Of a stretch of 64,000 nt of DNA, positions 50,031 to 62,600 are shown in pieces (position 1 is the first letter of the stretch; the number at the start of each line of letters is the position of its first letter). Where the stretch lies: contig CAWDMF010000007.1 in assembly GCA_963803185.1 (NCBI GenBank), positions 2,718 through 66,717 on the forward strand, read 5' to 3'. Position numbers and translations under genes: made by a program. The notes below the pieces were generated by a model. The model did not search any database and was not told where the DNA came from. It worked only from the letters and a program-made list of their open reading frames with translations. This DNA comes from an uncultured Gammaproteobacteria bacterium. GTDB lineage: Bacteria > Pseudomonadota > Gammaproteobacteria > SZUA-229.

Positions 50031-50104
50031 GTTGCAGCTACCGTTTATATTGAAATATCACAGCAAATTATCCAACGGGCTGTTTACAGAAATACCTGGT
50101 TTGT

Positions 50105-50330
50105 TCAGCACATGCGTATACGATGTTCAGGACGAACAAGTGTCTCGGGAGGCAGGAAGCCGGGAGAGACAATCATGGTGGTAGAAACATCGGCATGACC
50201 GAGTAATTCCTGCACCGTCTTACCCCGTTAGAACACACTGCCAAAATACAATTTTATGTGTGCTTTCTAACGGGCGAATATCATAACCGGATTCCAGTAG
50301 TGGGTCGCAAAGGCTAATGGGGTCAAGTCG
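50105..50330 (-). pseudogene. decayed C-terminal remnant of a tyrosine recombinase
   Basis: Minus-strand frames read ..AFATH.. and ..GKTVQELLGHADVSTTMI.. (box II / LLGH..TT.IY motif) interrupted by stops; no intact ORF. Confidence 0.55.
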
Positions 50331-50419
50331 TACATATCACATCAATTGCTTTAACAGCCTGACTAATAAAAGTGTCAAATGTAAGACTTGACCACCATAC
50401 CTTTAACGGGACGGTCGTG

Positions 50420-50812
50420 TTACCAGATATAATCGATCACAGCCTGGATCTGTTGTGAATTTAGCTCCCAGTAATATTTATCAAACGCCTCTTTTTTCCT
50501 TTTACGATGTTGTAAATTAATCACTCCACCAGAACCTTCATCCAGGTCCTGTAGTAAATCAAAATATTGCGGTTCATTTAAAATAATCCTGCCTGACTTA
50601 TCAAAATAATAGATGCCGCCTTCAATACGCGGGCAATAATCAGGTTTTTTATTTTCAAGTAATAAATAGGCGTGAGCAATATGAATAGATGCATTTGAAA
50701 ATTCTTTAACAGACTCTTTACCTGAGCTGATACGTTTCCATTTTGCATAAGGTATGCGAGTAACATTACCAGCATCAGAAAAGTAAAAAATATAAACAGT
50801 GTGGCTAGTCAT
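50420..50812 (-). CDS. hypothetical protein immediately downstream of intI (start overlaps intI stop)
   Basis: 130-aa ORF, no recognisable motifs; ATG overlaps TGA of intI C-terminal fragment. Confidence 0.4.
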   Translation of the reverse strand: MTSHTVYIFYFSDAGNVTRIPYAKWKRISSGKESVKEFSNASIHIAHAYLLLENKKPDYCPRIEGGIYYFDKSGRIILNEPQYFDLLQDLDEGSGGVINLQHRKRKKEAFDKYYWELNSQQIQAVIDYIW

Positions 50813-52228
50813 TATTCACTAAAATCATCCAGCGGGCTTTTTATATTGTCATGGTTCTTTTGCATCACGTGTGTGTAGATTTCTGTGGTTTTAACATCGT
50901 TATGCCCTAACAATACCTGTAACACCCGAATATTTTCACCATTTTCTAATAAGTGTGTGGCAAAGCTATGTCTATTATTCCGAGCTCGGAATAATAGACA
51001 TAATGCCGAGTTCCGGATTATTCCGAGTAGCAAACCGAAACACGGTGAATCACGGGATCTTGAGTACATCGAACTCGGCATAATCAGAGGCTATTCAGAA
51101 AAGCCAGTAGCTGATCATCGGGCCGATAACGTGCCATGGGTATATTTGAAGGAGTTGTCGTCGCCAAGGCTTTTTCTTTAAGTTTTAGATCTGCGTGGAG
51201 ATAGATATAGGTTGTTTCTACAGACTCATGACCAAGCCAGAGCGCAATAACAGTGTGATCAAAGCCAATAAAAGAAGACAGCCTGATTATTCCGAGTAAT
51301 CAAGCAGTGGATACCCTCATAAACCATTGAATGTAGGTATATGTCAGACGCATGTCAACATGCTACTCGGAATAATCCGGAACTCGGCATTATGTCTAAG
51401 CGTATGTGGCGAAGTGCGTTTAATGATCCCGGCCTTAATTCTTGCACTTGATACCGCTTTTTGTAGTGCGCTTTTATTAAGATGATGTCGCATAACTTTC
51501 CCGGAGCGCGGATCAGTCGAGCGTACTTTAGAAGGAAACAAATATTGCCAGCCCAATGAAATGTTTGCTTTGCTGTATTTACGACTTAATGCTGTCGGCA
51601 AATAAACTTCACCATAACCATCGGCTAAATCTTTATTGTGCAGTTGCTTTACCACTTCAATTTGGTCACGAATGGGTTGATGCAAAGCATCAGGGAAAAT
51701 TGTAGTGCGATCTTTGTCGCCTTTGGCATTTCTGACATAAATTTGATTATTTTCAAAATCAATGTCATGAATGCGTAAACGAATAACTTCCAACGAGCGT
51801 AAACCAGAGCCATACATCAAGTAGGCTAATGTTTTTGCCGTGCCCGACATGCAGGTCAACAAGGACTTTACTTCATCTTTACTTAATACGGTAGGCAGTC
51901 TTTTCCCTTTAGTTGTACGCCTGGCGCGGATATCAAGATCCATTGGCATATCAAGTACTTTTTTATAAAGGAACATAATGGCATTAAATGCCTGGTTCTG
52001 AGTTGAAGCTGCGACGTTGCGATTAACCGCAAGATGGCTTAAGAACCGTTCAATTTCAAACTTACCCATCTCCCTGGGGTGTTTCTTTCCATTGAAACGA
52101 ATAAATTTTAAGATCCATTCAACATACGATTTTTCAGTATTGTATGCGTAATGATAAAACCGAAGTGTTTCGCGTACCTGATCCATTAATCTGGTCGCAG
52201 TGGGTCGAAACGTAACTGACTCATCCAT
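50812..52228 (-). pseudogene. intI: integron integrase gene interrupted by a ~425-bp MITE insertion
   Basis: N-terminal part 51393-52228 has IntI signature (LPTALSRKYSKANISLGWQYLFPS, additional domain) and ends ..SPHTLRH then runs into element; C-terminal part ([36 protein letters not shown]) resumes at 50970 in continuity. Confidence 0.85.
50971..51398. mobile_element. non-autonomous MITE-like element with 36-bp perfect terminal inverted repeats and subterminal ATTATTCCGAG repeats
   Basis: TIR AGACATAATGCCGAGTTCCGGATTATTCCGAGTAGC at 50996-51031 and reverse-complemented at 51363-51398; ATGTCT present at both junctions; no coding capacity. Confidence 0.75.
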
Positions 52229-52547
52229 GATAAAAATCCTTTTAATTGGTGTATTAGCAATAGCTTAACTTATGGCTACTTTTGCCCTTAAATATCGTAA
52301 TAGGGCGCCTTGGTTAAAAATTCTTACATTACAAGGCTACTTTACCCCTTAAATATCGCAATAGGTAGCCATAGTCATGTAATATGATAAATATTCTAAA
52401 TTTAAGCACTGTCTGAGGCGTCTTTTACCCCTTAAATATCGTAATAGGGCGCCTTATAGGGTGTATATTATAAAAAATAGGACGCCTTAGAAGGCGTCAT
52501 ATCGACAAGTTAGCTTCATAAAAAAATACATCTTAGGGAATTTTATA
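52229..52547. promoter_or_regulatory. attI-like region with three ~40-bp direct repeats and a GTTAGCT core next to first cassette
   Basis: GGCTACTTT(g/a)CCCTTAAATATCG(t/c)AATAGG repeated at 52272, 52333, 52412; palindrome GACGCCTTAGAAGGCGTC; lies between intI start and first cassette. Confidence 0.5.
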
Positions 52548-53222
52548 ATGGGAAAGTACTCTCTTAAAAAAGAATTAGATACAACAGAGTTAATTAAATG
52601 GGGTAGCGCTGTTATAGGTGGTCTAGCCATATTTTTAGTGATAACTCTAAAAGATTATGAATTAAAAAAATACGAAATTCTTGAAAAAGAGGCCGTATTA
52701 ATAGAGAAGGCTGGTAACCAATTATTAAAAGGGTTTGAGTTAATGAAAAATTACAAGCCCAGTATAGATGTCCACTACACCAATATGCTATCCGAAAAAG
52801 CTGATGAACTTCACATTAGAGTTTATATCAAATCTACATCAAAAAACGATATATATATTTTTCCTCCAAAGTTGACTTTAATTGATGTAGAGGGAAATGA
52901 GATTGATACCAATCTGTATAAAGCTGGTGATATAAAATCATTTAAAGGAAGTATTAGTCCAGAGTCATCGTTTCAAATAAATTATAAAATATTCTTGCTA
53001 AATATAGACACTGATAAAATTGGCAATGTACAGCTTGACTATGAGGTTCAAATAGATCAACTGGCTTCAGCACCTATAAAGATGTACTTTGAAGAATATG
53101 GATCGGAGAAGGAGAAAGAGCTCTTTAATGTGCTTAACTCTAAAAAGTATATTTATCGAGAAAGGGTATATGCTTATGCGGGTAATCCCATTTGGAATGA
53201 TTTTTGGGAAAATCCGAGATAA
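52548..53222 (+). CDS. integron cassette ORF 1, membrane-anchored hypothetical protein
   Basis: N-terminal TM helix, followed by attC. Confidence 0.6.
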   Translation: MGKYSLKKELDTTELIKWGSAVIGGLAIFLVITLKDYELKKYEILEKEAVLIEKAGNQLLKGFELMKNYKPSIDVHYTNMLSEKADELHIRVYIKSTSKNDIYIFPPKLTLIDVEGNEIDTNLYKAGDIKSFKGSISPESSFQINYKIFLLNIDTDKIGNVQLDYEVQIDQLASAPIKMYFEEYGSEKEKELFNVLNSKKYIYRERVYAYAGNPIWNDFWENPR

Positions 53223-53225
53223 CTA

Positions 53226-53286
53226 AGCTAACAAGTTAATTAACGGCGACCGCAAAAAACGCGTCGCGTTATTTTTAACGTTATGT
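53226..53286 (+). other. attC site 1
   Basis: Imperfect palindrome TAACAAG...GCGACCGC..GCGTCGCG...AACGTTATGT. Confidence 0.55.
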
Positions 53287-53293
53287 TTAAAAA

Positions 53294-53671
53294 ATGAATT
53301 GGAAAATAATGGAAATATTCAAAGGCATTGATCTTAATGATTCATTTGTTCTTTCATGGCATCAAGGAACAAACGAACTTACTTTCGAGCTCGAAACAAG
53401 CATTTGGCCAGAATCTACATACTATGAGAAACCTAAACCAAATGAACATACTTGTTATAAACGAGCTATTCTTTCATTTAAAAACATTAAAGAGCTAAAT
53501 GGTCTACTAGAACTAAATCAAGTAAAAGCCACAACTGATGCTTCTGGTGAAAAAGACTATGGAAACATAGATAACTTAGAACAAAATGATAAGGGTTTTC
53601 TAGTTGAAGGTGAATTTGGTTCAGTCTCAATTGCAGGCGGAGAAATAAGCTTTGAAATCAAAAAAACATAA
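53294..53671 (+). CDS. integron cassette ORF 2, hypothetical
   Basis: ORF bounded by attC sites. Confidence 0.55.
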   Translation: MNWKIMEIFKGIDLNDSFVLSWHQGTNELTFELETSIWPESTYYEKPKPNEHTCYKRAILSFKNIKELNGLLELNQVKATTDASGEKDYGNIDNLEQNDKGFLVEGEFGSVSIAGGEISFEIKKT

Positions 53672-53752
53672 CAAGGCAATCAAGTTCGCCCGTAAAAATC
53701 ACGGGCTTGGACGCGGCAAAAGACGCCGCGCCACTTATTTATAACGTTATGT
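53666..53752 (+). other. attC site 2 (family B)
   Basis: ACATAAC inverse core ... GTTATGT core, internal imperfect palindrome. Confidence 0.6.
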
Positions 53753-53779
53753 GTGAAAAAATAAAAATGAGAAAAATAA

Positions 53780-54040
53780 ATGAGTGATGAATTTGAAGTA
53801 AATATGTCACCACTATGCCAAACCATATCAAGTGGTGGCAAGACATTGCAGGTCGATATTTATGAAGATGGTAATGGCAAGTGGATTTTAGAGGTAGTGG
53901 ATGAATTTAATAACTCTACTGTATGGGACGATTCATTTGAAACAGATAAAGCTGCCTTAACAGAAGCTAAAAAAACAATATTATCTGAGGGTGCAAGTAT
54001 ATTAGTTGGGCCTGAGTCAGGTAAAGGCGAATGGAGTTAA
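53780..54040 (+). CDS. integron cassette ORF 3, hypothetical
   Basis: ORF bounded by attC sites. Confidence 0.55.
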   Translation: MSDEFEVNMSPLCQTISSGGKTLQVDIYEDGNGKWILEVVDEFNNSTVWDDSFETDKAALTEAKKTILSEGASILVGPESGKGEWS

Positions 54041-54050
54041 AAAATAAAAC

Positions 54051-54137
54051 ACATAACAAATCAATCAAGTTCGCCAGCAAAAGGCGCTGGCTTGGACTCC
54101 GCAAAAAACGCTCCGCCACTTATTTCGGACGTTATAT
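54051..54137 (+). other. attC site 3 (family B, similar to site 2)
   Basis: ACATAACAAATCAATCAAGTTCGCC...CCACTTATTTCGGACGTTATAT. Confidence 0.6.
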
Positions 54138-54154
54138 TTAAAAGATAAAAAAGC

Positions 54155-54412
54155 ATGAATGAAGAACAAATTCTAAATGTAGCAAAGGTACTCGAAGAGT
54201 GGAACCCACTTGGCGAGGCAGCTAATACTGTAGAGCAATTAGATGGTTACCGTTATGAGGCAATTGATATTATTTCAACAATCCAAATAGTTAATGGCCC
54301 AGGTAAAATAAAAGAATCAATAGAGCAGGTATTAACACAAGCATTCAATATTGAGCTTAATGAAGTTAAGCTTACTGAGGCAGAAAACAAAATAAAGAGC
54401 CTAATCAGTTAA
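54155..54412 (+). CDS. integron cassette ORF 4, hypothetical
   Basis: ORF bounded by attC sites. Confidence 0.55.
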   Translation: MNEEQILNVAKVLEEWNPLGEAANTVEQLDGYRYEAIDIISTIQIVNGPGKIKESIEQVLTQAFNIELNEVKLTEAENKIKSLIS

Positions 54413-54438
54413 TCATCATGCTCTTATTAAATAAAAAA

Positions 54439-54530
54439 TATAACAAGCCGCTCAACATTGACCGTTTTTACACGCCGCGCCGTTTCACTTTGCTCTGTGT
54501 AAAACCGTCAGGTTATGCTGAGCGTTATGC
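54439..54530 (+). other. attC site 4 (family A: CTCAACATTGACC..TTTACACGCCGC..)
   Basis: TAACAAG...GTTATGC; related to attC 7, 9, 12. Confidence 0.6.
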
Positions 54531-54574
54531 ACATAAAAAAACCCAGGTGTTAACAAAAATAAATTGGAGGCGTA

Positions 54575-54778
54575 ATGGATCCTGATAAAATGATGAGTGA
54601 CATTTCAAAAGAAATACTTACGGCATTAAAAGCAATGGCAAAAGCAAAAAACCCTGAAGAAAAACTGATACACAGTGAAATAGTAAAGAATCTATGTGAT
54701 TCACTTGGAGTTTTTCTTAGTTTAATAAGTGATATGGCTCTATATGATGATGACGATGATGAACCAATCCCATTTTAA
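54575..54778 (+). CDS. integron cassette ORF 5, small protein with acidic tail (DDDDDEPIPF)
   Basis: 67-aa ORF; near-identical second copy at 57200. Confidence 0.55.
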   Translation: MDPDKMMSDISKEILTALKAMAKAKNPEEKLIHSEIVKNLCDSLGVFLSLISDMALYDDDDDEPIPF

Positions 54779-54789
54779 AATCACGTTTG

Positions 54790-54875
54790 CATAACAAATA
54801 AATTAACGCAGATCGCCATAGACGCCGTTTGTTTTCAAATAGGCCGTGCAGCGGCTGGTTATTAAAACGTTATGT
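54790..54875 (+). other. attC site 5 (family C)
   Basis: CATAACAAATAAATTAACGCAGATCGCC...GGCTGGTTATTAAAACGTTATGT. Confidence 0.6.
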
Positions 54876-54896
54876 GTAAAAACCGAATCAAAAGAA

Positions 54897-55316
54897 ATGG
54901 ATATATTTAATAGTTTGGAGGTTGAAAAAGTATTTAATTCTTATCCGGATAATATCCGCATAAAAATGCTACTCCTTCGCCAGCTAGTTCTGGAAACAGC
55001 AGCGGAAATTGATAACGTTCAAAGCATTGAAGAAACTTTAAAATGGGGCGAGCCAAGCTATATAACAAAGCACGGGAGTACATTACGGATGGACTGGAAA
55101 AAATCAAATCCAGATCAATATGCAATGTACTTCCATTGTAAGACAAAACTTGTTGATACATTCAAAGAGCTTTATAAAGGCAAGTTCAAGTTTGAAGGCA
55201 ACAGAGCCATTGTATTTAATATAAAAGACAAAATACCAATTAATGAGCTAAAGCATTGTATTTCTTTATCTCTCACTTATCACAACATTAAACATCTACC
55301 AATGTTGGGTGTATGA
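54897..55316 (+). CDS. integron cassette ORF 6, possible DUF1801/YdhG-like protein
   Basis: Start moved to Met after attC; weak resemblance to DUF1801. Confidence 0.4.
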   Translation: MDIFNSLEVEKVFNSYPDNIRIKMLLLRQLVLETAAEIDNVQSIEETLKWGEPSYITKHGSTLRMDWKKSNPDQYAMYFHCKTKLVDTFKELYKGKFKFEGNRAIVFNIKDKIPINELKHCISLSLTYHNIKHLPMLGV

Positions 55317-55320
55317 TAAA

Positions 55321-55420
55321 AACACATAACAAGGCGCTGCACCGGAATTTTGCTTCGCTACGCTTCGCAAAATCCCGTGAGCTGGGTCGCTAGGGCCGTA
55401 AAAACAAGCAACTTGACATT
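55321..55420 (+). other. attC-like site 6 (lacks clear 3' GTTATG core)
   Basis: ACACATAACAAGG inverse core with internal palindrome but atypical 3' end. Confidence 0.35.
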
Positions 55421-55446
55421 CATCTAAATGTAAATACAATGTATTT

Positions 55447-55710
55447 ATGATTAAATTCGAATGGGATGCATCCAAAGCCACATCAAACAAAAGAAAACAT
55501 GGCGTTACTTTTGAAGAAGCACAGTCTGTGTTCTACGATGACTTTGCCATCCAGTTCTTTGATGATGAAAATTCAGAGCTAGAAGATAGGTTTCTTTTAC
55601 TAGGTCACAGTAACCAATCAAGGATATTACTTATCTGCCACTGTGAAAAAGAATCAGGCAATCTCATTCGAATCATATCAGCACGTAAAGCAACAGATAA
55701 AAGAGCGTAA
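55447..55710 (+). CDS. brnT: BrnT-family (DUF497) ribonuclease toxin
   Basis: FEWDxxKAxxNxxKHGVTFEEA motif. Confidence 0.8.
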   Translation: MIKFEWDASKATSNKRKHGVTFEEAQSVFYDDFAIQFFDDENSELEDRFLLLGHSNQSRILLICHCEKESGNLIRIISARKATDKRA

Positions 55711-55731
55711 GCTCTATAAAGGTGAAGCATA

Positions 55732-55957
55732 ATGAAAAAAGAATATGATTTATCTAAAATGAAATCACGTAAAAATCCATATGCATCAAAGCTCAAAAAG
55801 CCCGTAACAATGCGTCTTGGTGAGGATGTAATCAATTATTTTAAAGAGTATGGCTGAGGATTCAGGTGTACCTTATCAAAGCTTAATTAATTTATATCTT
55901 CGTGACTGTATTTCACAGCATCGTAAAGTAGATATATCTTGGAATCAAAAGCCCTAA
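55732..55957 (+). pseudogene. brnA: BrnA-family antitoxin with 1-bp frameshift in TTTTAAAG run (~55840)
   Basis: MKKEYDLSKMKSRKNPYASKLKKPVTMRLGEDVINYFK then frame switches to SMAEDSGVPYQSLINLYLRDC.. Confidence 0.7.
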
Positions 55958-56044
55958 CAATACGCTCAACATTGACCATTTTTACACGCCGCGCCACTTC
56001 GTTTTGCTCTGTGTAAAAACGTCAAGTTAGCTCCAACGTTTGGT
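55953..56044 (+). other. attC site 7 (family A)
   Basis: CTAACAATACGCTCAACATTGACCATTTTTACACGCCGCGCC...GTTTGGT. Confidence 0.5.
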
Positions 56045-56055
56045 GGAGGAAGACG

Positions 56056-56454
56056 ATGAAAACTCAAGTAACATTTCGATCAATGAATTTCCCTCCGTAC
56101 GATGGCGAAGAAGAGCAGATCAACCCAGGTCTCTGGGGCAAGAGGTTAGCTGAGTATTTTGTCGATAAACTGAAGCCACATGGCATCGAGACGGAAGAGA
56201 TCATTGCGGAAGATTGGGGATGGTACATTCCGATAAAGAACGAAGGATTCCGACTCGCTATTTGTTGTGGGCACCAAAATGGCGATGACGACGAGTTCTT
56301 GTGCTTCACCGACCCAGCAACACCAATAATCCGGAAATTCTTCAAGAAGATAAACGCGACACATGAGATCACGCGCGTCGTGGTCGCCATGGGTAATATA
56401 CTTTCGTCGGATCCAAGGATAACTGATATTGAGTGGACAGAAGTTGAGAAATGA
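56056..56454 (+). CDS. integron cassette ORF 8, hypothetical
   Basis: 132-aa ORF between attC sites. Confidence 0.55.
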   Translation: MKTQVTFRSMNFPPYDGEEEQINPGLWGKRLAEYFVDKLKPHGIETEEIIAEDWGWYIPIKNEGFRLAICCGHQNGDDDEFLCFTDPATPIIRKFFKKINATHEITRVVVAMGNILSSDPRITDIEWTEVEK

Positions 56455-56456
56455 CA

Positions 56457-56515
56457 CCGAACAAGGCTAATGCAGCCGACGCAAAAAGCCGCGCGGCTGA
56501 TTAGCAACGTTAGCA
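56457..56515 (+). other. attC site 8 (short)
   Basis: AACAAGG..GCCGCGCGGC..CAACGTTAGCA. Confidence 0.45.
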
Positions 56516-56568
56516 CCCATCAATACAAAAGTATGGCTATTTAGCCATATCAATGCTATATTTACCCT

Positions 56569-56859
56569 ATGAGTGAACAGGACTTCGAATGGGATGAGAC
56601 AAAAAACCAGGAAAATCAACGAAAACATGGCGTTACATTCTATGAAGCACAACATGCTTTCTTAGATACAAACCGTGTTATTGCTGAGGATTTGGAGCAT
56701 AGCCAGGCTGAAAAACGATATTATTGTTTCGGCTTAAATGAACAAGGCAATGGCATTCTTACTGTTCGGTTTACTTATCGGTCTGGTTGCATCCGTATAA
56801 TTGGTGCAGGTTATTGGCGCAAAGGTAAAAAGATCTATGAGCAAAACAATTCAATATAG
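56569..56859 (+). CDS. brnT: BrnT-family (DUF497) toxin, second copy
   Basis: FEWDETKNQENQRKHGVTFYEAQ. Confidence 0.8.
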   Translation: MSEQDFEWDETKNQENQRKHGVTFYEAQHAFLDTNRVIAEDLEHSQAEKRYYCFGLNEQGNGILTVRFTYRSGCIRIIGAGYWRKGKKIYEQNNSI

Positions 56860-57079
56860 TAACGAGCCAATCGGTGATTTAAAACTAATACCTGATTTTC
56901 TACCATCACCGGAAGAGCTCGCACTCAAACAACAAAATACTAAAGTCACAATATCTCTTAGTTCAGAGAGTGTTGCCTATTTTAAAGACACTGCAAAAAA
57001 ACATCACATGCAGTATCAAAAAATAATTCGGCAGTTACTCGATGAGTATGTGGCTCACCAAAAAAGTGCTAACAAGTAG
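56837..57079 (+). CDS. brnA: BrnA-family antitoxin, second copy (overlaps toxin 3' end)
   Basis: IPDFLPSPEEL..KVTISLSSESVAYFK, RHH/CopG-like; start at internal Met 56837. Confidence 0.7.
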   Translation: MSKTIQYSNEPIGDLKLIPDFLPSPEELALKQQNTKVTISLSSESVAYFKDTAKKHHMQYQKIIRQLLDEYVAHQKSANK

Positions 57080-57156
57080 CTCAACATTGACCATTTTATA
57101 CGCCGCTTCGTTTCACTTCGCAGCGTATAAAATGGCAAGTTAGCATGGCGTTATGC
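57076..57156 (+). other. attC site 9 (family A)
   Basis: CTCAACATTGACCATTTTATACGCCGCTTCGTTTCACT...GGCAAGTTAGCATGGCGTTATGC. Confidence 0.6.
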
Positions 57157-57199
57157 ACATAAAAACACCAGGTGTTAACAAAAATAAATTGGAGGAATA

Positions 57200-57373
57200 A
57201 TGGAACCTGATAAAATAATGAGTGACATTTCAAAAGAAATACTTACGGCATTAAAAGCAATGGCAAAAGCAAAAACCCCTGAAGAAAAACTGATACACAG
57301 TGAAATAGTAAAGAACCTATGTGATTCACTTGGAGTTTTTCTTGGTTTAATAAGTGATATGGCTCTATTATGA
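57200..57373 (+). pseudogene. duplicate of cassette ORF 5 with 1-bp insertion truncating the acidic tail
   Basis: MEPDKIMSDISKEILTALKAMAKAKTPEEKLIHSEIVKNLCDSLGVFLGLISDMALL*; TAT->TTAT shifts frame. Confidence 0.6.
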
Positions 57374-57415
57374 TGATGACGATGATGAATCAATCCCATT
57401 TTAAAATCACATTTG

Positions 57416-57501
57416 CATAACAAATAAATTAACGCAGGCCGCCATAGACGCCGTTTGTTTTCAAATAGGCCGTGCGGCGGCTGGTTATTAAAACGTTATG
57501 C
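57416..57501 (+). other. attC site 10 (family C, ~97% identical to attC 5)
   Basis: Direct alignment with 54790-54875. Confidence 0.6.
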
Positions 57502-57622
57502 CTATGAAGAGTTATGAGAGCTACTAAAGAGGACGTTCAACTCGGGTCAAGATGTTCTTGATTTGAACAAAAGATGGTGTTTATTCTTCCTGTACTTGTA
57601 CAATCAGATATTCAAAAAGGAT

Positions 57623-57838
57623 TTAATTGTACTCTCCAGGAAGATCGTTTTTTATAACAGTAACCTTGCCAAATTTCTTACCTGACATTCTCAATAATTC
57701 ATCACCTGAAAATTCAAAACCAAGCTTTAGTGCTATTCGCGCAACATCATCTGCAGTTGATGTTGCGAGCACCTCATTTTTAAGTGCAGGTTCAGACTGC
57801 ATTTTTATTAAAAATGCCTCGAGTTGATCTAATGCCAT
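57623..57838 (-). CDS. Nif11-domain-like small protein in an inverted-orientation cassette
   Basis: MALDQLEAFLIKMQSEPALKNEVLATSTADDVARIALKLGFEFSGDEL matches Nif11 N-terminal domain. Confidence 0.5.
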   Translation of the reverse strand: MALDQLEAFLIKMQSEPALKNEVLATSTADDVARIALKLGFEFSGDELLRMSGKKFGKVTVIKNDLPGEYN

Positions 57839-57979
57839 ATTTGAAATTCCTATTCTCGCTAGCTGTTCATATATTAAACAGAAAAACCATTACAGGTTTC
57901 TAGCAAATTCTACTATTCTTTCAAGATATAGGCAATGAGTGGAACTCCCGGAAGACTAGATATATTGTGCAAGAAAAGG

Positions 57980-58085
57980 CATAACAATGGCAATTGAGTG
58001 GGACTTGCCTTCCGCGGTGTTCGTTTGTGCTTGATAGCACAAGCCTCACCCCGCTCCGGCAAGCCCCTCATTGCGAGCGTTAGCA
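57980..58085 (+). other. attC site 11 (long)
   Basis: CATAACAATGG...GCGAGCGTTAGCA with internal palindromic arms. Confidence 0.45.
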
Positions 58086-58135
58086 TCTCAAAAACTACAT
58101 TGACAAGTGTAATCCAATGGATTATACTTGTAGTC

Positions 58136-58474
58136 ATGCAAGCCATAGTCGAACTACCTGAATTCCTGAGAAAATCTGATAAATTACTCAGCAATACAGA
58201 AAGACTAAGTATTATCAATTATTTAGCTGAGCATCCGGCGGCTGGCGATATCATGCAAGGCACTGGTGGTATTCGTAAATTAAGGTGGTCTGCACAAGGT
58301 AAAGGCAAAAGTGGCGGTGTACGTGTGATCTATTACCATCACAATGAATCAATGCCTTTATTTTTATTAACACTGTTTGGTAAAGGCGAAAAAGCCAACT
58401 TAACCAAATCTGAGAGTAACGATCTAGCCAAATTCACATCGTTATTAATTAAGAACTATGGAGGCCAAAAATGA
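58136..58474 (+). CDS. higB: RelE/ParE-superfamily toxin, HigB-like
   Basis: GGIRKLRWSAQGKGKSGGVRVIYY motif; start at internal Met 58136. Confidence 0.7.
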   Translation: MQAIVELPEFLRKSDKLLSNTERLSIINYLAEHPAAGDIMQGTGGIRKLRWSAQGKGKSGGVRVIYYHHNESMPLFLLTLFGKGEKANLTKSESNDLAKFTSLLIKNYGGQK

Positions 58475-58758
58475 GTAAAGCATTTGATAGTATCAAACAA
58501 GGCCTTGATGAAGCTTTAGAGTTTTCAAAAGGCAAAAAAGGAAAAGCAGTGGTGCATGAATTCACACCTTTAGATGTAAAAAACATTCGAGCCAAGGTAG
58601 GTATGTCACAAAATGAGTTCGCATCAGCATTCGGCATAAGTGTTAGCACACTCCGCCACTGGGAGCGCGGAGACAGAACACCACATGGCCCTGCATTAGT
58701 TTTATTAAATGTAGTCGCCAAAGAGCCCAAAGCAGTACTTAAAGCACTGAGTCACTAA
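58471..58758 (+). CDS. higA: XRE-family HTH antitoxin, HigA-like
   Basis: HTH (MSQNEFASAFGISVSTLRHWERGDRTP); 4-bp overlap with toxin. Confidence 0.7.
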   Translation: MSKAFDSIKQGLDEALEFSKGKKGKAVVHEFTPLDVKNIRAKVGMSQNEFASAFGISVSTLRHWERGDRTPHGPALVLLNVVAKEPKAVLKALSH

Positions 58759-58838
58759 GTGCTAACAAGTAGCTTAACTTTGACCATTTTATACGCCGCT
58801 TCGTTTCACTCCACTCTGTATAAAATGGCAAGTTAGCA
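58759..58838 (+). other. attC site 12 (family A), truncated by IS insertion
   Basis: Matches attC 9 up to GGCAAGTTAGCA then diverges into IS terminal repeat GGTTCCGTCGCAAA. Confidence 0.55.
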
Positions 58839-59636
58839 GGTTCCGTCGCAAATAAGTGAATTGGCGCCAACATTTCCTGAACGTCATTCCGCTTACGCAG
58901 CCAGGGCATAGAATTGATCAGCAAATGATAAATTACGCGAGATGTTTTTTTTCATTTGTCCTTTTTTGATCATAGCAACCAGCTCAATTCCAGCCAATGT
59001 GCTTTGAGCTGAATTGAAGTTTTTGAAGCCAAGCATTGGTCGTGTTAACCGTTTTATTCGTCGGTGATCCTGCTCTATGATGTTGTTCAAGTATTTACAT
59101 TGACGCACTTTAACTCGCTTATTGTTGTCTTCATTGAACTGAGTTAAAGCGGCTTTATTAGAGCCACTTTTATCGATGTTTACTAAGCCAGGCTTGCCGT
59201 TTCTTTCAATAGCTTTGGTGAAATATCTTAGCGCAGCCGCTTTATCGCGCTTGGCGGTGAGGAGGAAGTCGATGGTATTTCCCTGCTTATCGACAGCTCG
59301 GTAATAATATTTCCACTCGCCTTTAACCTTGATATAGGTCTCGTCCATTCTCCATCGATCACCTGGACGTCTCTTCTTTTGATGGAAAGCCTTTTCAAGT
59401 TGAGGCGAGTAGAAAGTAACCCAGCGATTCAATGTGCTATGATCAACCTCGATGCCTCGCTCTGCCACCATCTCTTCGATATTCCGATAGCTAAGGGCAT
59501 ATGCACAATACCATCTTACACATTGAAGAATAATTTCACGAGGGAAGTGTCGCGATTTAAAACTGATCATATGGAGCTACTTGAAGTAAAGTTGAGTTTC
59601 AACATTATACTCGAACGGCCTGAATGCGACAAAACC
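58839..59636 (-). mobile_element. IS6-family insertion sequence (~798 bp)
   Basis: 14-bp imperfect terminal IRs GGTTCCGTCGCAAA (58839) and GGTTTTGTCGCATT (revcomp at 59623-59636); single transposase ORF; no flanking 8-bp duplication. Confidence 0.75.
58893..59570 (-). CDS. IS6-family (IS26-like) DDE transposase
   Basis: MISFKSRHFPREIILQCVRWYCAYALSYRNIEEM..MDETYIKVKG..YYYRAVD typical of IS6 Tnp. Confidence 0.85.
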   Translation of the reverse strand: MISFKSRHFPREIILQCVRWYCAYALSYRNIEEMVAERGIEVDHSTLNRWVTFYSPQLEKAFHQKKRRPGDRWRMDETYIKVKGEWKYYYRAVDKQGNTIDFLLTAKRDKAAALRYFTKAIERNGKPGLVNIDKSGSNKAALTQFNEDNNKRVKVRQCKYLNNIIEQDHRRIKRLTRPMLGFKNFNSAQSTLAGIELVAMIKKGQMKKNISRNLSFADQFYALAA

Positions 59637-59690
59637 CCGGTAATTAGTCGAAATAACAAACCACATATTCAGCTTGAAAAAGGACAGTAT

Positions 59691-62600
59691 ATGATCACCG
59701 GGCAATTTAGCTGGGAACAGTGCCCAAAATCACTCTCTATTCCCAGTGAGACAGGCCTGGTTTATTTAACAATAGACAATACAAAAGTAGCGTTACCTGA
59801 CTTTCGCCAGGGCAAGTTGTGGCTAAAAACAACCAGCGCTTCAACACATCAAAACAACCGATTAGAGCTGCAGGTATTTAGAAAAATATCTGACACCATC
59901 CCCATGCGTGTTATCACGCAAATTAAACTTGATGTATCAGGTCAGCAACGTGAAATTATCCTCGATGGCGCTTTACTTAATGGCTTTAGCCCGAGTGCCA
60001 TTGATAGTCCTCTGCCATCACAGTTGGATAAAGGTGGACGTTTAAAAGTCCAGATAAGACCAGGGCAATGGACAGTTGATATCAGTGCTTTTAACCCGCG
60101 ACAACTAGAGTCGATTGTACTTCCTTCCTTTAAGACCCCCTGGCCAGGTAATGAAGTGTGGGTAGTAGACCAGCAGACACAGCTCCGCCTGATAAAAGTA
60201 GTCGACAAAAATAGTATTGATCCGAATCAAACACAACTGCCACAGCGTTGGAAATCCTATCCCGCATACAATATGCAAGGTGGTGAAAAATTATCGTTTA
60301 AAGTCATTAAACGTGGTGATCCTGACCCGGAGCCCGATCAATTAAGTATTAAAAAAAGAATATGGCTGGATTTTGATGGCAATGGATTTACCATAAACGA
60401 CAAACTCACCGGCACGCTTACAAAGCAATGGCGACTAAATGCGTCGTCAGATGTCTCGTTAGGACAGGTCACACTTAATGGTAAGCCACAATTTATAACA
60501 ACAGACAGCAATAATAAACAAGGCGTTGAGGTAAGACACGGGAATCTTGATCTATCCGCTGATAGTCGCGTAATAGGCGACACGCGAATACTGTCATCCG
60601 GTGGCTGGGATATGGACTTTAATCAGGCTGAGGCTACGCTATTTCTGCCGGCTGGGTGGCGGTTACTGTCTTTGACAGGTGCGAATACCAGCAACACCTG
60701 GATTGACAAATGGTCACTCCTGGATCTATTTATGGTGCTGATAACTGCGATTGCTATCTACAAGTTGTGGGGGATTCGATGGGGTGTATTAGGGTTGGTT
60801 GCCTTAATTATCTTGTGGCATGAGTACGATGCACCACAGTATATATGGATAAATCTGATCATCGCTATTGCCATGTTGCGATCTTTGCCACAGGGTCGTT
60901 TTTATAAAATTATCACTAGCTATCGTCTGTTGACATCTGTTGTTCTGTTGCTCATTACATTACCGTTTATCGTTAATCAGGCACGAACGGCCATTTATCC
61001 GCAACTCGAATTTAGTAACATGAGTGCAAGTAACTCCTTTGCACGGGATGCTGTCTACCCGGCTTCAACTGTATCTCCAGTACAAAAACTGTCTAGTTCG
61101 GTCGCTGAAAGGGCGTTAATGGCAGATGAGGAACCTATGCTCAGCAGTGTAGGACGAGGTAAGTCAGGCTATCTGTATGAAAAGAAACATAAGCAAATAA
61201 TCACCATCGATCCAGACGCGATGATACAAACCGGCCCAGGCCTGCCATCCTGGACACTGCATCAGTTTCACTTACGCTGGGATGGGCCTGTCCGTCACGA
61301 TCAGACGATTTCAATGACGTTGCTATCGCCGGCGATGAACTCACTGCTCAATATACTGAGAATCGCACTGGTATTGCTACTGGCCTGGCGTCTTCTTGAT
61401 ATTGGTTCATTGAAAATACCAAAACTTCCCGTTAAAGCAGAAAGCAAGACGTTAGTAACAATATTTCTAGTCGGTAGCCTGTTTGGTTTATCACCAACAC
61501 CTGCAGATGCTGCCTATCCGTCACAGGAAATGCTTAATCAATTATATGATGAGCTAACCAGGGAGCCAGAGTGTTTACCCCAGTGTGCGAGTATCGAGGC
61601 ACTGGATATTGATTTATCGTCGGAGCAGCTCACCCTGAACATGCGAGTTCATGCACATGAGAATGTCTCGCTGCCACTACCAGTCCCCGTTAAACAATGG
61701 TCCCCCTCTAAGATAAGCGTCGATGATAAATCTTCAGCCATCCTTTCGCGTCAGAGTGATTCGACACTATGGATCTATTTAACAGAAGGCAGTCACACGG
61801 TTAAATTTAGTGGTCGTGTAACAGCTTTAGATCTTCTGCAACTTAGCTTTCCATTAAAACCGCATCATATAGCATTAACCATGAAAGGTTGGACAGAGGA
61901 GGGTATGGACAGCCAGGCGTATAAAATTACAGCACTCTCTTTTCAACGGATTGCAGATAAAACCAGTCCTTCAAAGACTAATAAGATAGAGCAAAAAGAG
62001 ATTCCCGTTTATGCTGAAGTAACAAGAGAATTACAGCTGGGACTGGACTGGTACGTTACGACAACCGTACAAGGTGTTTCAGGTAGTGCTTACCCGGTTA
62101 TTTTAGAGATCCCCTTACTGACGGGTGAATCGGTGGTAACCGACAATATTAAAGTGGTTGATGGCCATGCAATCATTACACTCAGCCGCCCAGATCAGAA
62201 AATAAGGTGGACATCAAAACTTAAAATTAATGATCAGATTAACCTAAAGGCAAGTGAGCAGGGCAGGTTCATCGAGAAATGGTCACTCAATTCAAGTGCT
62301 ATCTGGCACATTGACTATGATGGTATACCTGTCATCTATCACCAACGGTATGCGAACCAGTGGCAGCCGGAATGGCAGCCATGGCCGGGTGAAGAGGTAG
62401 TCATTTATGTCAGCCGTCCTGAAGGGGTTAAGGGCAACACTATTACCATTGATAGCAGTAAGCTTTCATTAACACCTGGTGAGCAAATAACAGCATCAAA
62501 ACTGGCCTTTAATCTGCGCAGTAGCCTCGGTGGACAGCATACTATTAAGATTCCTGAAAACACTGATCTGCAGACGGTCATGATAAATGGTCAGAGTATG

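What the first reader, a model, noticed from the sequence alone, without database searches (positions are those of the whole stretch)
52229..58838. Chromosomal integron array: about 12 cassettes, three distinct attC families, three toxin-antitoxin modules, mostly unknown ORFs
Every unit is bounded by an inverse core ACATAAC / TAACAAG at one end and GTTATGY / GTTAGCA at the other. The attC sites fall into at least three sequence families: A at sites 4, 7, 9 and 12, B at 2 and 3, and C at 5 and 10. That mix suggests cassettes captured from several pools rather than a homogeneous sedentary array. The cassettes include brnTA twice, higBA, a Nif11-like gene on the opposite strand, a possible DUF1801 protein and five small unknown ORFs. 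The attI side carries three 40-bp direct repeats that could be IntI binding sites.
Basis: partly seen in the sequence, partly recalled or inferred. Interest (0 to 1): 0.55.

Follow-up and report, generated by a model that had tools for sequence, protein, structure and literature searches.

The report
Decayed chromosomal integron, twelve cassettes
This is a real but ordinary integron (a bacterial gene-capture array of 12 mobile cassettes) in an uncultured gammaproteobacterium; its integrase gene has been knocked out by a small mobile element and its far end cut off by an insertion sequence.

Summary
Window 52229-58838 is the attI site plus 12 gene cassettes of an integron. Its integrase gene (intI, minus strand, 50812-52228) lies just left of the reported interval.

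Evidence:
- An integron-integrase HMM hit, and an end-to-end alignment to VchIntIA.
- Each cassette's first bases match the inverse core of its own attC (0 of 100,000 permutations do as well).
- Bottom-strand folds with bulges on one arm.
- Cassettes 10 and 11 recur at about 99% identity in other contigs, with homology ending at the predicted G|TT points.

Corrections:
- In attC family A, GTTAGC is the L' box. The true R' lies about 10 nt further on.
- attC6 has a mutated R' (GCT).
- attC12 lacks R' because an IS6 element cuts it at 58839.
- intI is split at its box II codons by a 416-bp derivative of a recombinase-in-trio (RIT) element, so the array cannot rearrange by itself.
- The attC families A, B and C recur in arrays of related integrases.

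Side observations:
- The three attI-side repeats are conserved, dyad-flanked units.
- A 130-aa gene always follows intI.
- The RIT lineage appears to home into tyrosine-recombinase genes.

Verdict: a new member of a known kind.

The parts
50053..50214 (-). Remnant of the last ~36 codons of a second, different integron integrase (TVQELLGHADVSTTMI / YTHVLNKPGISVNSPLDNLL*). It is itself split by a ~50-bp insert and lies directly after ssb.
   Evidence: Translation. About 75% identical to the C-termini of other IntI clades. Comparison with sister contig L081.
50420..50812 (-). orf130: a 130-aa gene of unknown function whose start overlaps the intI stop. It is conserved immediately downstream of intI in this integrase clade.
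   Evidence: tblastn. 70 protein clusters, all hypothetical. Same position in L082 and L083, which have other chromosomal contexts. No Pfam, NCBIfam, PADLOC or PHROGs hit. AlphaFold pLDDT 89 but no convincing fold match.
50812..50967 (-). intI C-terminal part (SFATHLL...EIYTHV...SPLDDFSE*), which carries the catalytic tyrosine.
   Evidence: TIGR02249 positions 265-314, 78 bits. Reconstruction.
50967..51398 (.). 416-bp miniature derivative of a recombinase-in-trio (RIT) element, plus 8-bp repeats TATGTCTA at both junctions. Perfect 38-bp terminal inverted repeats lie at 50995-51032 and 51361-51398. It retains the last 60 codons of ritC (51083-51262, minus strand).
   Evidence: I1, I4. Relatives read uninterrupted through ...CTTAGACAT|AGCTTT.... 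The fragment matches the third gene of a recombinase trio. Full-length relative L104.
51392..52228 (-). intI N-terminal part (279 codons, ending ...SPHTLRH).
   Evidence: TIGR02249 integron integrase, 342 bits against a cut-off of 265. The rejoined protein aligns over residues 15-326 with VchIntIA 2A3V, E=1.7e-86, with no gap in the IntI-specific segment.
52229..52515 (+). intI-attI intergenic region. It holds three dyad-flanked units (52267-52317, 52328-52378, 52410-52461), a conserved block GTATATTATAAAAAATAGG, and the attI core GACGCCTTAGAAGGCGTCATATCGACAAG|TTAGC with the crossover G at 52509.
   Evidence: Homology with six relatives ends at 52512-52513. The Nif11 cassette follows the same CATATCGACAAG|TTA junction in L088.
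52510..53280 (+). Cassette 1: ORF 52548-53222 (224 aa, unknown function, hydrophobic N-terminal stretch). attC1 at 53226-53286 (61 nt, singleton).
53281..53746 (+). Cassette 2: ORF 53294-53671 (125 aa, unknown). attC2 at 53666-53752 (family B, branched tip).
53747..54131 (+). Cassette 3: ORF 53780-54040 (86 aa, unknown). attC3 at 54051-54137 (family B).
   Evidence: 95.6% identical attC in L081 ending at the crossover.
54132..54524 (+). Cassette 4: ORF 54155-54412 (85 aa; weak sub-threshold DUF1871 hit). attC4 at 54438-54530 (family A).
54525..54869 (+). Cassette 5: ORF 54575-54778 (67 aa, unknown). attC5 at 54789-54875 (family C).
   Evidence: (D1/D2).
54870..55389 (+). Cassette 6: DUF1801 protein 54897-55316. 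attC6 at 55324-55395, whose R' is GCTAGGG (GTT mutated to GCT). Cassettes 6 and 7 are therefore probably fused.
   Evidence: Pfam PF08818, 41.7 bits. Junction test. Fold.
55390..56038 (+). Cassette 7: promoter-like TTGACA-16-TACAAT (55413-55440), brnT 55447-55710, and brnA 55732-55957 with a 1-nt frameshift. attC7 at 55952-56044 (family A).
56039..56509 (+). Cassette 8: ORF 56056-56454 (132 aa, unknown; GC 0.478, the highest in the array). attC8 at 56456-56515 (60 nt, singleton).
56510..57150 (+). Cassette 9: brnT 56569-56859 and brnA-like gene ending at 57079. attC9 at 57067-57156 (family A).
57151..57495 (+). Cassette 10: a 96% duplicate of cassette 5, with the ORF 57200-57373 frameshifted. 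attC10 at 57415-57501 (family C).
   Evidence: 99.1% identical to L001 6152-6500 over 57149-57498..
57496..58079 (-). Cassette 11: Nif11-domain gene 57623-57838 on the opposite strand. attC11 at 57979-58085 (107 nt, singleton).
   Evidence: Pfam PF07862, 54.7 bits. The same cassette at 98.8-99.1% identity in five other contigs, with different neighbours.
58080..58838 (+). Cassette 12: promoter-like TTGACA-17-TATACT (58100-58128), RelE-family toxin 58136-58474, and HTH/NadS-type antitoxin 58471-58758. attC12 at 58760-58838 (family A), cut after L' so that no R' remains.
58839..59636 (-). IS6-family insertion sequence (transposase 58893-59570; ends GGTTCCGTCGCA / GGTTTTGTCGCA). There is no 8-bp target duplication (AGTTAGCA against CCGGTAAT). 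It truncates both the array and the N-terminus of the large ORF to its right.
   Evidence: NF033587, 265.6 bits..

Best explanation
This is an integron on the chromosome of an uncultured gammaproteobacterium. The chromosomal flanks carry rpoA, uvrA and ssb.

How an integron works (established knowledge). The integrase IntI recombines the folded bottom strand of a cassette's attC site with attI, or with another attC. Cassettes enter at attI, stack up, and can be excised as circles. A promoter near attI expresses the proximal, promoterless cassettes. Toxin-antitoxin cassettes carry their own promoters and stabilise the array.

What is shown here:
- An IntI-type gene.
- An attI whose conservation among relatives stops at G|TTA.
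- Twelve cassettes whose ends obey the circular-junction rule.
- attC sites with the R/L-box bulged hairpin.
- The same cassettes in other genomes, bounded at the same points.

What is inferred:
- The platform is no longer autonomous. intI is split between HTLRH and SFATH by a RIT-derived miniature element, which separates the catalytic tyrosine from the rest of the protein.
- attC6 has lost its GTT.
- An IS6 element has removed the R' of attC12 and everything beyond it.
- The array can now change only through an integrase supplied in trans, homologous recombination between related attCs, or IS activity.
- The two toxin-antitoxin cassettes with near-consensus promoters (cassettes 7 and 12) are probably expressed regardless.

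Expression of cassettes 1-6 from a promoter in the attI region is plausible but not demonstrated.
For: Integrase:
- TIGR02249, 342 bits against a cut-off of 265, for the N-part alone, plus 78 bits for the C-part.
- The rejoined protein aligns to VchIntIA 2A3V at E=1.7e-86.

attI:
- The region is conserved in 11 relatives.
- Homology ends at 52512-52513.

Cassette boundaries:
- Own-junction complementarity is 5.5 of 7 against 2.74, with 0 of 100,000 permutations as good.

Folds:
- R stem, loop and L stem, with bulges only on the 3' arm of the bottom strand.
- Bottom-strand energy is at least as low as top-strand energy in 11 of 11 sites.

Mobility:
- Cassette 11 recurs at about 99% identity behind a family-A attC (L085), behind a family-B attC (L087), behind an attI (L088), and at a non-integron site (L086). 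Homology spans 57495-58078, against the predicted 57495 and 58079.
- Cassette 10 is 99.1% identical to a cassette in L001, over 57149-57498.

Chromosomal location:
- tRNA cluster and ORFs matching rpoA, uvrA and ssb in the called genes of sister contig L081.
- An independent sister contig, L081, has the same ssb-integron junction at 97-98% identity.

Disruption:
- for the intI insertion.
- for IS6.

Toxin-antitoxin promoters: 11 of 12 consensus matches at 55413 and at 58100.
Against: - No curated attC covariance model could be run. Rfam has none, and IntegronFinder is not available here.
- Fold energies of attC1, 5, 6, 7 and 10 are not lower than those of shuffled sequence (z from -0.3 to -1.1). 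For those sites the case rests on architecture and junction logic, not on stability.
- The constrained fold of attC3 is not the canonical one.
- The right-hand junction (array / IS6 / large ORF) is seen in this assembly only. The sister contig instead continues with at least 10 kb more of small genes. A repeat-induced misjoin at the IS cannot be excluded.
- No promoter for the cassettes has been established.
Confidence: 0.93

Rival explanations
1. The integron is intact and active. On this view the apparent interruption of intI and the frameshifts are assembly artefacts.
For: The source is a metagenome-assembled contig. Single-base frameshifts in brnA and in cassette 10 lie next to short homopolymers.
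Against: The intI interruption is a 416-bp structured element with perfect 38-bp inverted repeats. It is present at the same site in the independently assembled sister contig L081/L084. It belongs to an element family found at the same codon position in other genes. None of this fits an assembly error.
Confidence: 0.03
2. The platform is a recently imported, horizontally moving integron rather than an ancient resident of this chromosome. This is compatible with the main explanation; it concerns the locus's history only.
For: - orf130-intI-attI is 92-95% identical at nucleotide level to L001 and L082, whose flanks are unrelated (RND efflux/purA in L082). Homology stops at 50417.
- The 3' end of a different intI sits between ssb and the platform, as if an older integron had been replaced.
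- Cassette GC is 0.32-0.40 against 0.44 for the flank.
Against: - No transposition or conjugation genes, and no terminal repeats, delimit the platform.
- The taxonomic distance between the window and L001/L082 is unknown, so 94% identity could partly reflect relatedness.
- The sister strain has the integron at the same site.
Confidence: 0.35
3. The repeats are ordinary intergenic palindromes (REP-like elements or terminators) next to an unrelated tyrosine recombinase, not attC sites.
For: Several sites have unremarkable folding energy. Some resemble terminators.
Against: - This cannot explain the own-junction complementarity.
- It cannot explain why bulges lie on one arm only.
- It cannot explain homology breakpoints at G|TT in other genomes.
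- It cannot explain the integron-specific integrase model hit.
Confidence: 0.01
4. The end of the array at IS6 is an assembly misjoin. On this view the real array continues as it does in the sister strain.
For: IS copies are classic misassembly points. L084 continues with at least 10 kb of small genes after the Nif11 cassette. The IS has no target duplication.
Against: Absence of a duplication is also what an IS6-mediated deletion leaves behind. The window and L084 arrays already differ upstream of that point.
Confidence: 0.15

Closest known systems
Vibrio cholerae chromosomal integron (VchIntIA / VCR array)
   Same: - The integrase aligns end to end with the solved VchIntIA (2A3V, E=1.7e-86).
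- It is on the chromosome.
- The cassettes are mostly small ORFs of unknown function.
- Toxin-antitoxin cassettes carry their own promoters.
- The attC 5' arm reads TAACAA-N5-CTCAA. From my memory of the VCR sequence this resembles it, but I did not test that here.
   Different: - 12 cassettes rather than more than 100.
- The attC sites are heterogeneous (mean 59% identity) rather than more than 80% alike.
- The integrase is inactivated.
- The attI region has a different, repeat-rich architecture.
- No LexA box was evident on reading the intI upstream region. This was by eye only, not a formal scan.
attI1 of class 1 integrons (simple site plus DR1/DR2)
   Same: Directly repeated elements lie between intI and the crossover site. 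attI1 is described as a simple site with two direct repeats that bind IntI1 (PMC3146285).
   Different: DR1 and DR2 are 7-bp core-type sequences (GTTACGC / GTTATGG). Here the units are about 40 nt long. Each has a conserved centre (TTAAATATCGNAATAG), covarying 6-8-nt inverted arms, and no GTTRRRY. The IntI1 equivalog model is not reached (247 bits against a cut-off of 435).
Degenerate integrons and CALIN (Cury et al. 2016, PMC4889954)
   Same: A cassette array whose integrase is a pseudogene. Such decay is described as common in genomes.
   Different: Here both halves of intI are still present and the cause of inactivation can be read directly (a RIT-derived insertion). Under IntegronFinder's definitions it would still count as a complete integron.
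RIT (recombinase in trio) elements (PMC3414803; PMC10214605)
   Same: The insert's ORF fragment matches the C-terminus of the third gene of a trio. Full-length relatives carry three overlapping recombinase genes between inverted repeats (L104). The terminal inverted repeats are 38 bp here, against 34 bp reported.
   Different: The copy in the window is a 416-bp deletion derivative with no intact gene. This lineage is found at one codon position of tyrosine-recombinase genes. The papers I could read list RIT target specificity as not tested.

Membership tests
Integron (intI + attI + attC cassettes; definitions as in PMC4889954) | Tyrosine recombinase of the IntI type, with the extra domain near patch III | tested here: met
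   TIGR02249, 342 bits (cut-off 265) for the N-part. Gap-free alignment to VchIntIA through residues 195-235. The gene is interrupted.
Integron | attC sites: R''-L''...L'-R' imperfect palindromes with AAC/GTT ends and extrahelical bases on one arm | tested here: met
   DNA folds of bottom strands. Canonical in 9 of 11 complete sites; attC2 has a branched tip; attC3 is ambiguous. Bulges lie only on the R''-L'' arm.
Integron | Detection by a curated attC covariance model (IntegronFinder) | not testable with these tools
   Rfam returned no attC match. MAFFT could not align the sites well enough for a model of my own.
Integron | Cassettes are discrete units: the start of each cassette derives from the R' of its own circular form | tested here: met
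   (0 of 100,000 permutations). Homology breakpoints lie at G|TT in other contigs.
Integron | attI next to intI, with the crossover at G|TTRRRY | tested here: met
   Conservation among relatives ends at GTTA, 52509-52512. L088 has a different first cassette at the same junction.
Integron | Cassette promoter Pc and integrase promoter PintI | tested here: inconclusive
   The consensus scan found nothing strong in 52229-52520. On reading, there are conserved -10-like hexamers after units 2 and 3 and upstream of intI. These are unverified.
Integron | Recombination activity | not testable with these tools
   There is only indirect evidence that the cassettes moved in the past. The present intI lacks its tyrosine-bearing end in frame.
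Sedentary chromosomal integron (Vibrio type) | Large array with highly similar attC sites | tested here: not met
   12 cassettes; mean pairwise attC identity 59%; three families plus four singletons. The array is truncated, so its original size is unknown.
Mobile integron classes 1-3 | IntI1-type integrase; carried on a transposon or plasmid | tested here: not met
   NF011946 scores 247 bits against a cut-off of 435. The flanks are housekeeping genes.
BrnT/BrnA toxin-antitoxin | BrnT toxin domain followed by a BrnA antitoxin | tested here: met
   PF04365 scores 93.9 and 78.1 bits (cut-off 34.5). BrnA/CopG hits for the second antitoxin are below cut-off (21.6 against 26.1). The first antitoxin aligns with L084 BrnA only across a frameshift.
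HigB/HigA | HigB-family toxin upstream of an HTH antitoxin | tested here: inconclusive
   Gene order fits. The toxin hits PF06296 (RelE, 31.1 bits, cut-off 27) with no HigB-named model among the hits. The antitoxin hits NadS NF041265 (66.8 bits, cut-off 60) and HTH_3.
RIT element | Three adjacent, overlapping tyrosine-recombinase genes between terminal inverted repeats | tested here: not met
   The window copy keeps only the inverted repeats and 60 codons of the third gene. The full trio is present in relative L104 with the same repeats. The window copy is therefore a derivative, not a complete member.
IS6 family | Single DDE transposase of about 220-230 aa, short terminal inverted repeats, about 0.8 kb | tested here: met
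   NF033587, 265.6 bits, covering model positions 1-202 of 202. 798 bp with 12-nt ends that match at 10 of 12 positions.

The most novel reading that the evidence does not exclude
The integron records a conflict between mobile elements. Its integrase was silenced by a RIT-family element whose lineage integrates site-specifically into the box II codons (H-x-L-R-H | S-F-A-T-H) of tyrosine-recombinase genes in general, in either orientation. This would give RIT elements a defined target, and a way to disable rival recombinases and freeze integron arrays.

Two further undescribed features are conserved on the platform:
- A dyad-flanked unit of about 40 nt, at fixed positions between intI and attI, shared by two distant IntI clades.
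- A 130-aa gene following intI (start overlapping the intI stop here), whose predicted fold matches nothing solved.
Probability: 0.5. Interest if true: 0.65.

Novelty: new member of a known kind. Interest (0 to 1): 0.38.

Why it matters
As an integron it adds little. Environmental chromosomal integrons with toxin-antitoxin cassettes and unknown cassettes are common, and none of the cassette proteins hits a resistance or defence model.

Its value is as a well-resolved example of integron decay. The integrase has been knocked out by another mobile element, one attC carries a point mutation, and an IS has truncated the array. Sister contigs show that the same cassettes circulate among co-occurring bacteria.

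The side observations could matter more:
- A target-site rule for RIT elements. The literature I could read lists their mobility and specificity as untested.
- A conserved attI architecture, for a class of integrons whose attI sites are otherwise described as unknown.
- An integrase-linked gene of unknown function.

Tried and rejected
- Rfam scan of 49.5-60.5 kb at E<=1 gave only a chance miRNA hit on the RIT palindrome. It returned no attC match.
- My own R-box-plus-fold detector was neither sensitive nor specific: 4 true sites against 5 hits elsewhere. In an array, R' belongs to the next cassette, so R''/R' complementarity is not required. I dropped it.
- A chain-walking script that followed junction complementarity picked wrong R' candidates on the positive control. 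Dropped.
- The MAFFT alignment of the 11 attCs misaligned the L' arms, so I built no attC covariance model.
- PADLOC and PHROGs found nothing for the unknown cassette ORFs or orf130. The only hit was a 16-bit chance match.
- Exact-protein look-ups of the MFS transporter and of orf130 found nothing.
- A full-text search for the attI unit and core sequences found no paper.
- Ricker et al. 2013 on RIT elements is not held.
- I considered whether the hairpin plus T-run at 52481-52498 (minus strand) is a terminator. Its stem is not conserved in L005 or L007, so I did not pursue it.
- I considered IHF, LexA and core-site (GTTRRRY) matches in the attI units by reading. None fits.

Full report
**Context.** The window is chromosomal.
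- It carries a tRNA cluster and large ORFs of the sizes expected for a ribosomal-protein/rpoBC region.
- Just left of the finding it carries uvrA, an MFS transporter and ssb.
- Exact-sequence look-ups place the window on a 90,156-bp metagenome-assembled contig. Related proteins are labelled only 'Gammaproteobacteria bacterium'.
- An independently assembled sister contig (L081/L084, 249 kb) is 97-98% identical through rpoA...ssb. It also continues into an integron-like array.

**The integrase.**
- An ORF on the minus strand (51344-52228) matches the integron-integrase model TIGR02249 at 342 bits (cut-off 265). The match stops at model position 267 of 315. The missing end (positions 265-314, 78 bits) lies in a separate ORF at 50812-50967.
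- Rejoining the two parts gives a 330-aa protein. It aligns over residues 15-326 with the solved Vibrio cholerae integrase VchIntIA (2A3V, E=1.7e-86) with no gap in the integron-specific segment.
- The class-1-type equivalog is not reached (247 bits against 435).
- Between the parts lies a 416-bp insert bounded by 8-bp repeats TATGTCTA, with perfect 38-bp terminal inverted repeats.
- Eleven relatives found through the protein (IntI 65-96% identical, all from uncultured bacteria) read straight through ...CCACATACGCTTAGACAT|AGCTTTGCC.... The insert is therefore specific to this lineage.
- It separates HTLRH from SFATH...EIYTHV, so the catalytic tyrosine is not translated with the rest of the protein. 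The sister contig has the same insert.

**attI.**
- The 280 nt between the intI start and the first cassette are conserved in the relatives.
- Nucleotide homology with L002, L003, L005, L007, L008 and L082 ends at 52512-52513, inside GTTA of CATATCGACAAG|TTAGC. After that point each genome has a different first cassette.
- In L088 the Nif11 cassette of this window sits directly behind the same CATATCGACAAG|TTA junction.

**Cassette boundaries.**
- I placed the R'' (…AAC) and R' (G|TT…) boxes of 12 sites.
- A cassette excised as a circle carries the TTRRRY of its own R'. In an array, therefore, the first bases of each cassette should be the reverse complement of the inverse core of that same cassette's attC.
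- This holds for all twelve. The mean is 5.5 of 7 identities at positions 4-10, against 2.74 for non-own pairs, and 0 of 100,000 permutations reach the observed total.
- The test also settles three details:
1. The R' is about 10 nt further on (GTTATGC, GTTTGGT).
  2. Site 6 has GCTAGGG where its partner predicts GTTAGGG, so the invariant triplet carries a point mutation.
  3. Site 12 ends at L', because an IS6 element begins at 58839.

**Folding.**
- With DNA parameters, the bottom strands fold into a terminal R-box stem, an internal loop, and an L-box stem. The stem is interrupted by one to three single-base bulges, all on the 3' (R''-L'') arm, and is followed by a variable tip.
- This is clear for sites 1 and 4-11.
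- Site 2 forms the R stem and a short L stem around a two-hairpin tip.
- The constrained optimum for site 3 is a different fold, so that site is ambiguous on its own, although it is 80% identical to site 2.
- The bottom strand is at least as stable as the top strand in all eleven complete sites.
- Energies alone are not exceptional for sites 1, 5, 6, 7 and 10 (z from -0.3 to -1.1 against shuffles). For those the argument rests on architecture and junction logic.
- No curated attC model was available. Rfam gave nothing, and my attempts at a home-made detector or model failed.

**Independent evidence that the units are mobile.**
- Cassette 11 (57496-58079) recurs at 98.8-99.1% identity in five other contigs.
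- In L086 the homology spans 57495-58078, which is the predicted crossover points to the base.
- Its upstream neighbour differs each time:
  - a family-A attC in L085;
  - a family-B attC in L087;
  - an attI in L088;
  - unrelated sequence at the start of the cassette in L084;
  - non-integron DNA in L086.
- Cassette 10 is 99.1% identical to a cassette of L001 over 57149-57498.

**Content.**
- Pfam and NCBIfam confirm:
  - BrnT in cassettes 7 and 9 (93.9 and 78.1 bits);
  - a BrnA-like antitoxin, below cut-off in cassette 9 and readable only across a 1-nt frameshift in cassette 7;
  - DUF1801 (41.7 bits);
  - a Nif11-domain protein on the opposite strand (54.7 bits);
  - a toxin-first pair in cassette 12: RelE family PF06296 at 31.1 bits, and a NadS/MqsA-type HTH at 66.8 bits.
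- Cassettes 1-5 and 8 have no significant hit in Pfam, NCBIfam, PADLOC or PHROGs.
- Cassette 10 is a 96% copy of cassette 5 with a 1-nt insertion. Given the metagenomic source, the two frameshifts may be assembly errors.
- Near-consensus sigma-70-like sites (11 of 12 matches) precede the toxin genes of cassettes 7 and 12. The total number of promoter-like sites in the region is not above chance.
- Cassette GC is 0.32-0.40 (0.478 for cassette 8), against 0.44 for the flank.

**attC families and the 'several pools' idea.**
- The families are real: A 66-81% identity, B 80%, C 95%. Four sites are singletons, and the mean pairwise identity is 59%.
- By the usual criterion (PMC4889954) this is not a homogeneous Vibrio-type array.
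- However, families A, B and C also occur in the arrays of L001 (IntI 96% identical), L002 and L008, and in L085 and L087. The mixture therefore belongs to the cassette pool of this integrase lineage, rather than showing capture from unrelated sources.

**Right end.**
- The IS6 element (58839-59636; transposase NF033587, 265.6 bits) has no 8-bp target duplication.
- It also truncates the large ORF on its right.
- This fits an IS-mediated deletion, but a misjoin at a repeat cannot be ruled out. In the sister contig at least 10 kb of further small genes follow the Nif11 cassette.

**Left end.**
- Homology with the relatives stops at 50417, just past a 130-aa ORF whose start overlaps the intI stop.
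- Between that point and ssb lie two imperfect inverted repeats and the last ~36 codons of a different intI.
- This suggests that an older integron occupied the site. The sister contig has a shorter, recombinant version of this region.

**Side observation 1: the attI repeats.**
- Each unit is a 6-8-nt arm, 8 nt, the centre TTAAATATCGNAATAG, and then the complementary arm.
- In the gammaproteobacterial clade the units lie about 62, 124 and 207 nt from the intI start codon. L001 and L011 have one unit.
- A similar unit occurs in a second clade (IntI 53-61% identical; contigs labelled Desulfobacterota or 'Deltaproteobacteria', and one Scalindua). There it lies at 12 and 83 nt and has entirely different arms (TTTTCCAY / RTGGAAAA). 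The first arm overlaps the intI start codon.
- On 47 units chosen by their centre only:
  - 82.7% of arm cells pair, against 58.6% in shuffles and 39-49% when the partner is slid;
  - the covariation score is 0.595 against 0.207, with 0 of 500 shuffles as high;
  - the cells are 283 Watson-Crick, 28 G-T and 12 A-C.
- A covariance model built from the units hits only the intI-attI spacer in 1.04 Mb of loci.
- The centre resembles the left half of the attI core (ATATCG-ACAA-GTTAGC). The units contain no GTTRRRY.
- On reading, units 2 and 3 are each followed at the same distance by a -10-like hexamer, and unit 1 abuts a conserved TAATAC upstream of intI.
- My best guess is that these are accessory sites for the recombinase, or for a regulator that sets integrase and cassette transcription. 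This is inference only.
- I found no paper containing these sequences. attI is stated to be unknown for most integrons (PMC4889954).

**Side observation 2: orf130.**
- It follows intI in L001, L004, L006, L008, L009, L010, L035, L082 and L083, in different chromosomal contexts.
- It forms about 70 clusters of hypothetical proteins.
- It is predicted with confidence (pLDDT 89), but it has no convincing structural neighbour.
- It is absent from L002, L003, L005 and L007, which still have the units. It is therefore not the obligatory partner of the units.

**Side observation 3: the insert in intI.**
- Its 60-codon ORF fragment matches the C-terminus of the third of three overlapping tyrosine-recombinase genes on rhizobial plasmids. 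That arrangement is a RIT element (PMC3414803).
- A metagenome scan with the repeat core found 19 contigs. These include full-length copies with the trio (L103, L104).
- At 14 element ends the flanking sequence encodes H-x-L-[RK]-H immediately before the repeat, in at least eight different genes.
- At six other ends the flank on the other strand encodes RHSFATHLL. There is one exception.
- This lineage therefore appears to integrate into the box II codons of tyrosine-recombinase genes, in either orientation.
- The papers I could read give RIT target specificity as not tested (PMC10214605, Table 1). They cite insertions in a transposase gene and in radC (PMC3414803). I could not read Ricker et al. 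2013.

**Verdict.**
- It is a new member of a known kind, and it is in a state of decay.
- The cassettes offer nothing surprising.
- The interest lies in the three side observations, which need dedicated follow-up.

Noticed in passing
window 50967-51398; loci L090-L108 (e.g. L104 928-4318): The element that splits intI is a 416-bp derivative of a RIT (recombinase-in-trio) element. In 19 metagenome contigs the same terminal repeat abuts H-x-L-[RK]-H codons at 14 ends and RHSFATHLL codons at 6 ends, in at least 8 different tyrosine-recombinase genes. This suggests site-specific homing to the box II codons.
   Followed up: partly
window 52267-52317, 52328-52378, 52410-52461; same position in L001-L009, L011, L035, L082, and in L014, L020, L023-L033: The attI-side repeats are units of about 40 nt with a conserved centre and covarying inverted arms. 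They sit at fixed distances from the intI start in two distant integrase clades. In 1 Mb of loci they are found nowhere else. Their function is unknown.
   Followed up: partly
[not shown]
   Followed up: partly
window 50053-50214 (-): The last ~36 codons of a second, different integron integrase lie between ssb and the present platform. They are themselves split by a ~50-bp hairpin-containing insert (GTCTC...GAGAC). The sister contig L081 has a recombinant, shorter version of this region.
   Followed up: partly
window 50224-50274 and 50310-50404: Two imperfect inverted repeats (24-nt arms with a 3-nt gap; 32-nt arms with a 31-nt gap) lie in the 200 bp between the old intI remnant and orf130. 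This is where homology with other integrons ends.
   Followed up: no
L086 9761-10344: The Nif11 cassette of this window (99% identical) sits alone between a dus gene and carboxysome-shell genes, outside any integron. Its junctions are ...GACTT|GTTATGCC and GCGAGC|AATCGG, so it may be a cassette inserted at a secondary genomic site.
   Followed up: no
L081/L084 (ENA ERZ25039514 contig_54754): A sister strain with 97-98% identical flanks has the integron at the same locus. Most of its intI is deleted and its RIT remnant is inverted and 212 bp longer. It carries two IS (DDE_Tnp_1) copies and a largely different, longer run of small genes. It shares only the Nif11 cassette and an attC3-like site.
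   Followed up: partly
window 59379-63392 (+): A very large ORF (reading frame open for 1337 aa) lies to the right of the IS6 element. It has several hydrophobic stretches and no Pfam hit. Its true N-terminus appears to have been removed by the IS.
   Followed up: no
window 56532-56549: A perfect palindrome TATGGCTA-AATAGCCATA lies just upstream of the second brnT (cassette 9). It could be an operator for the antitoxin rather than a terminator.
   Followed up: no
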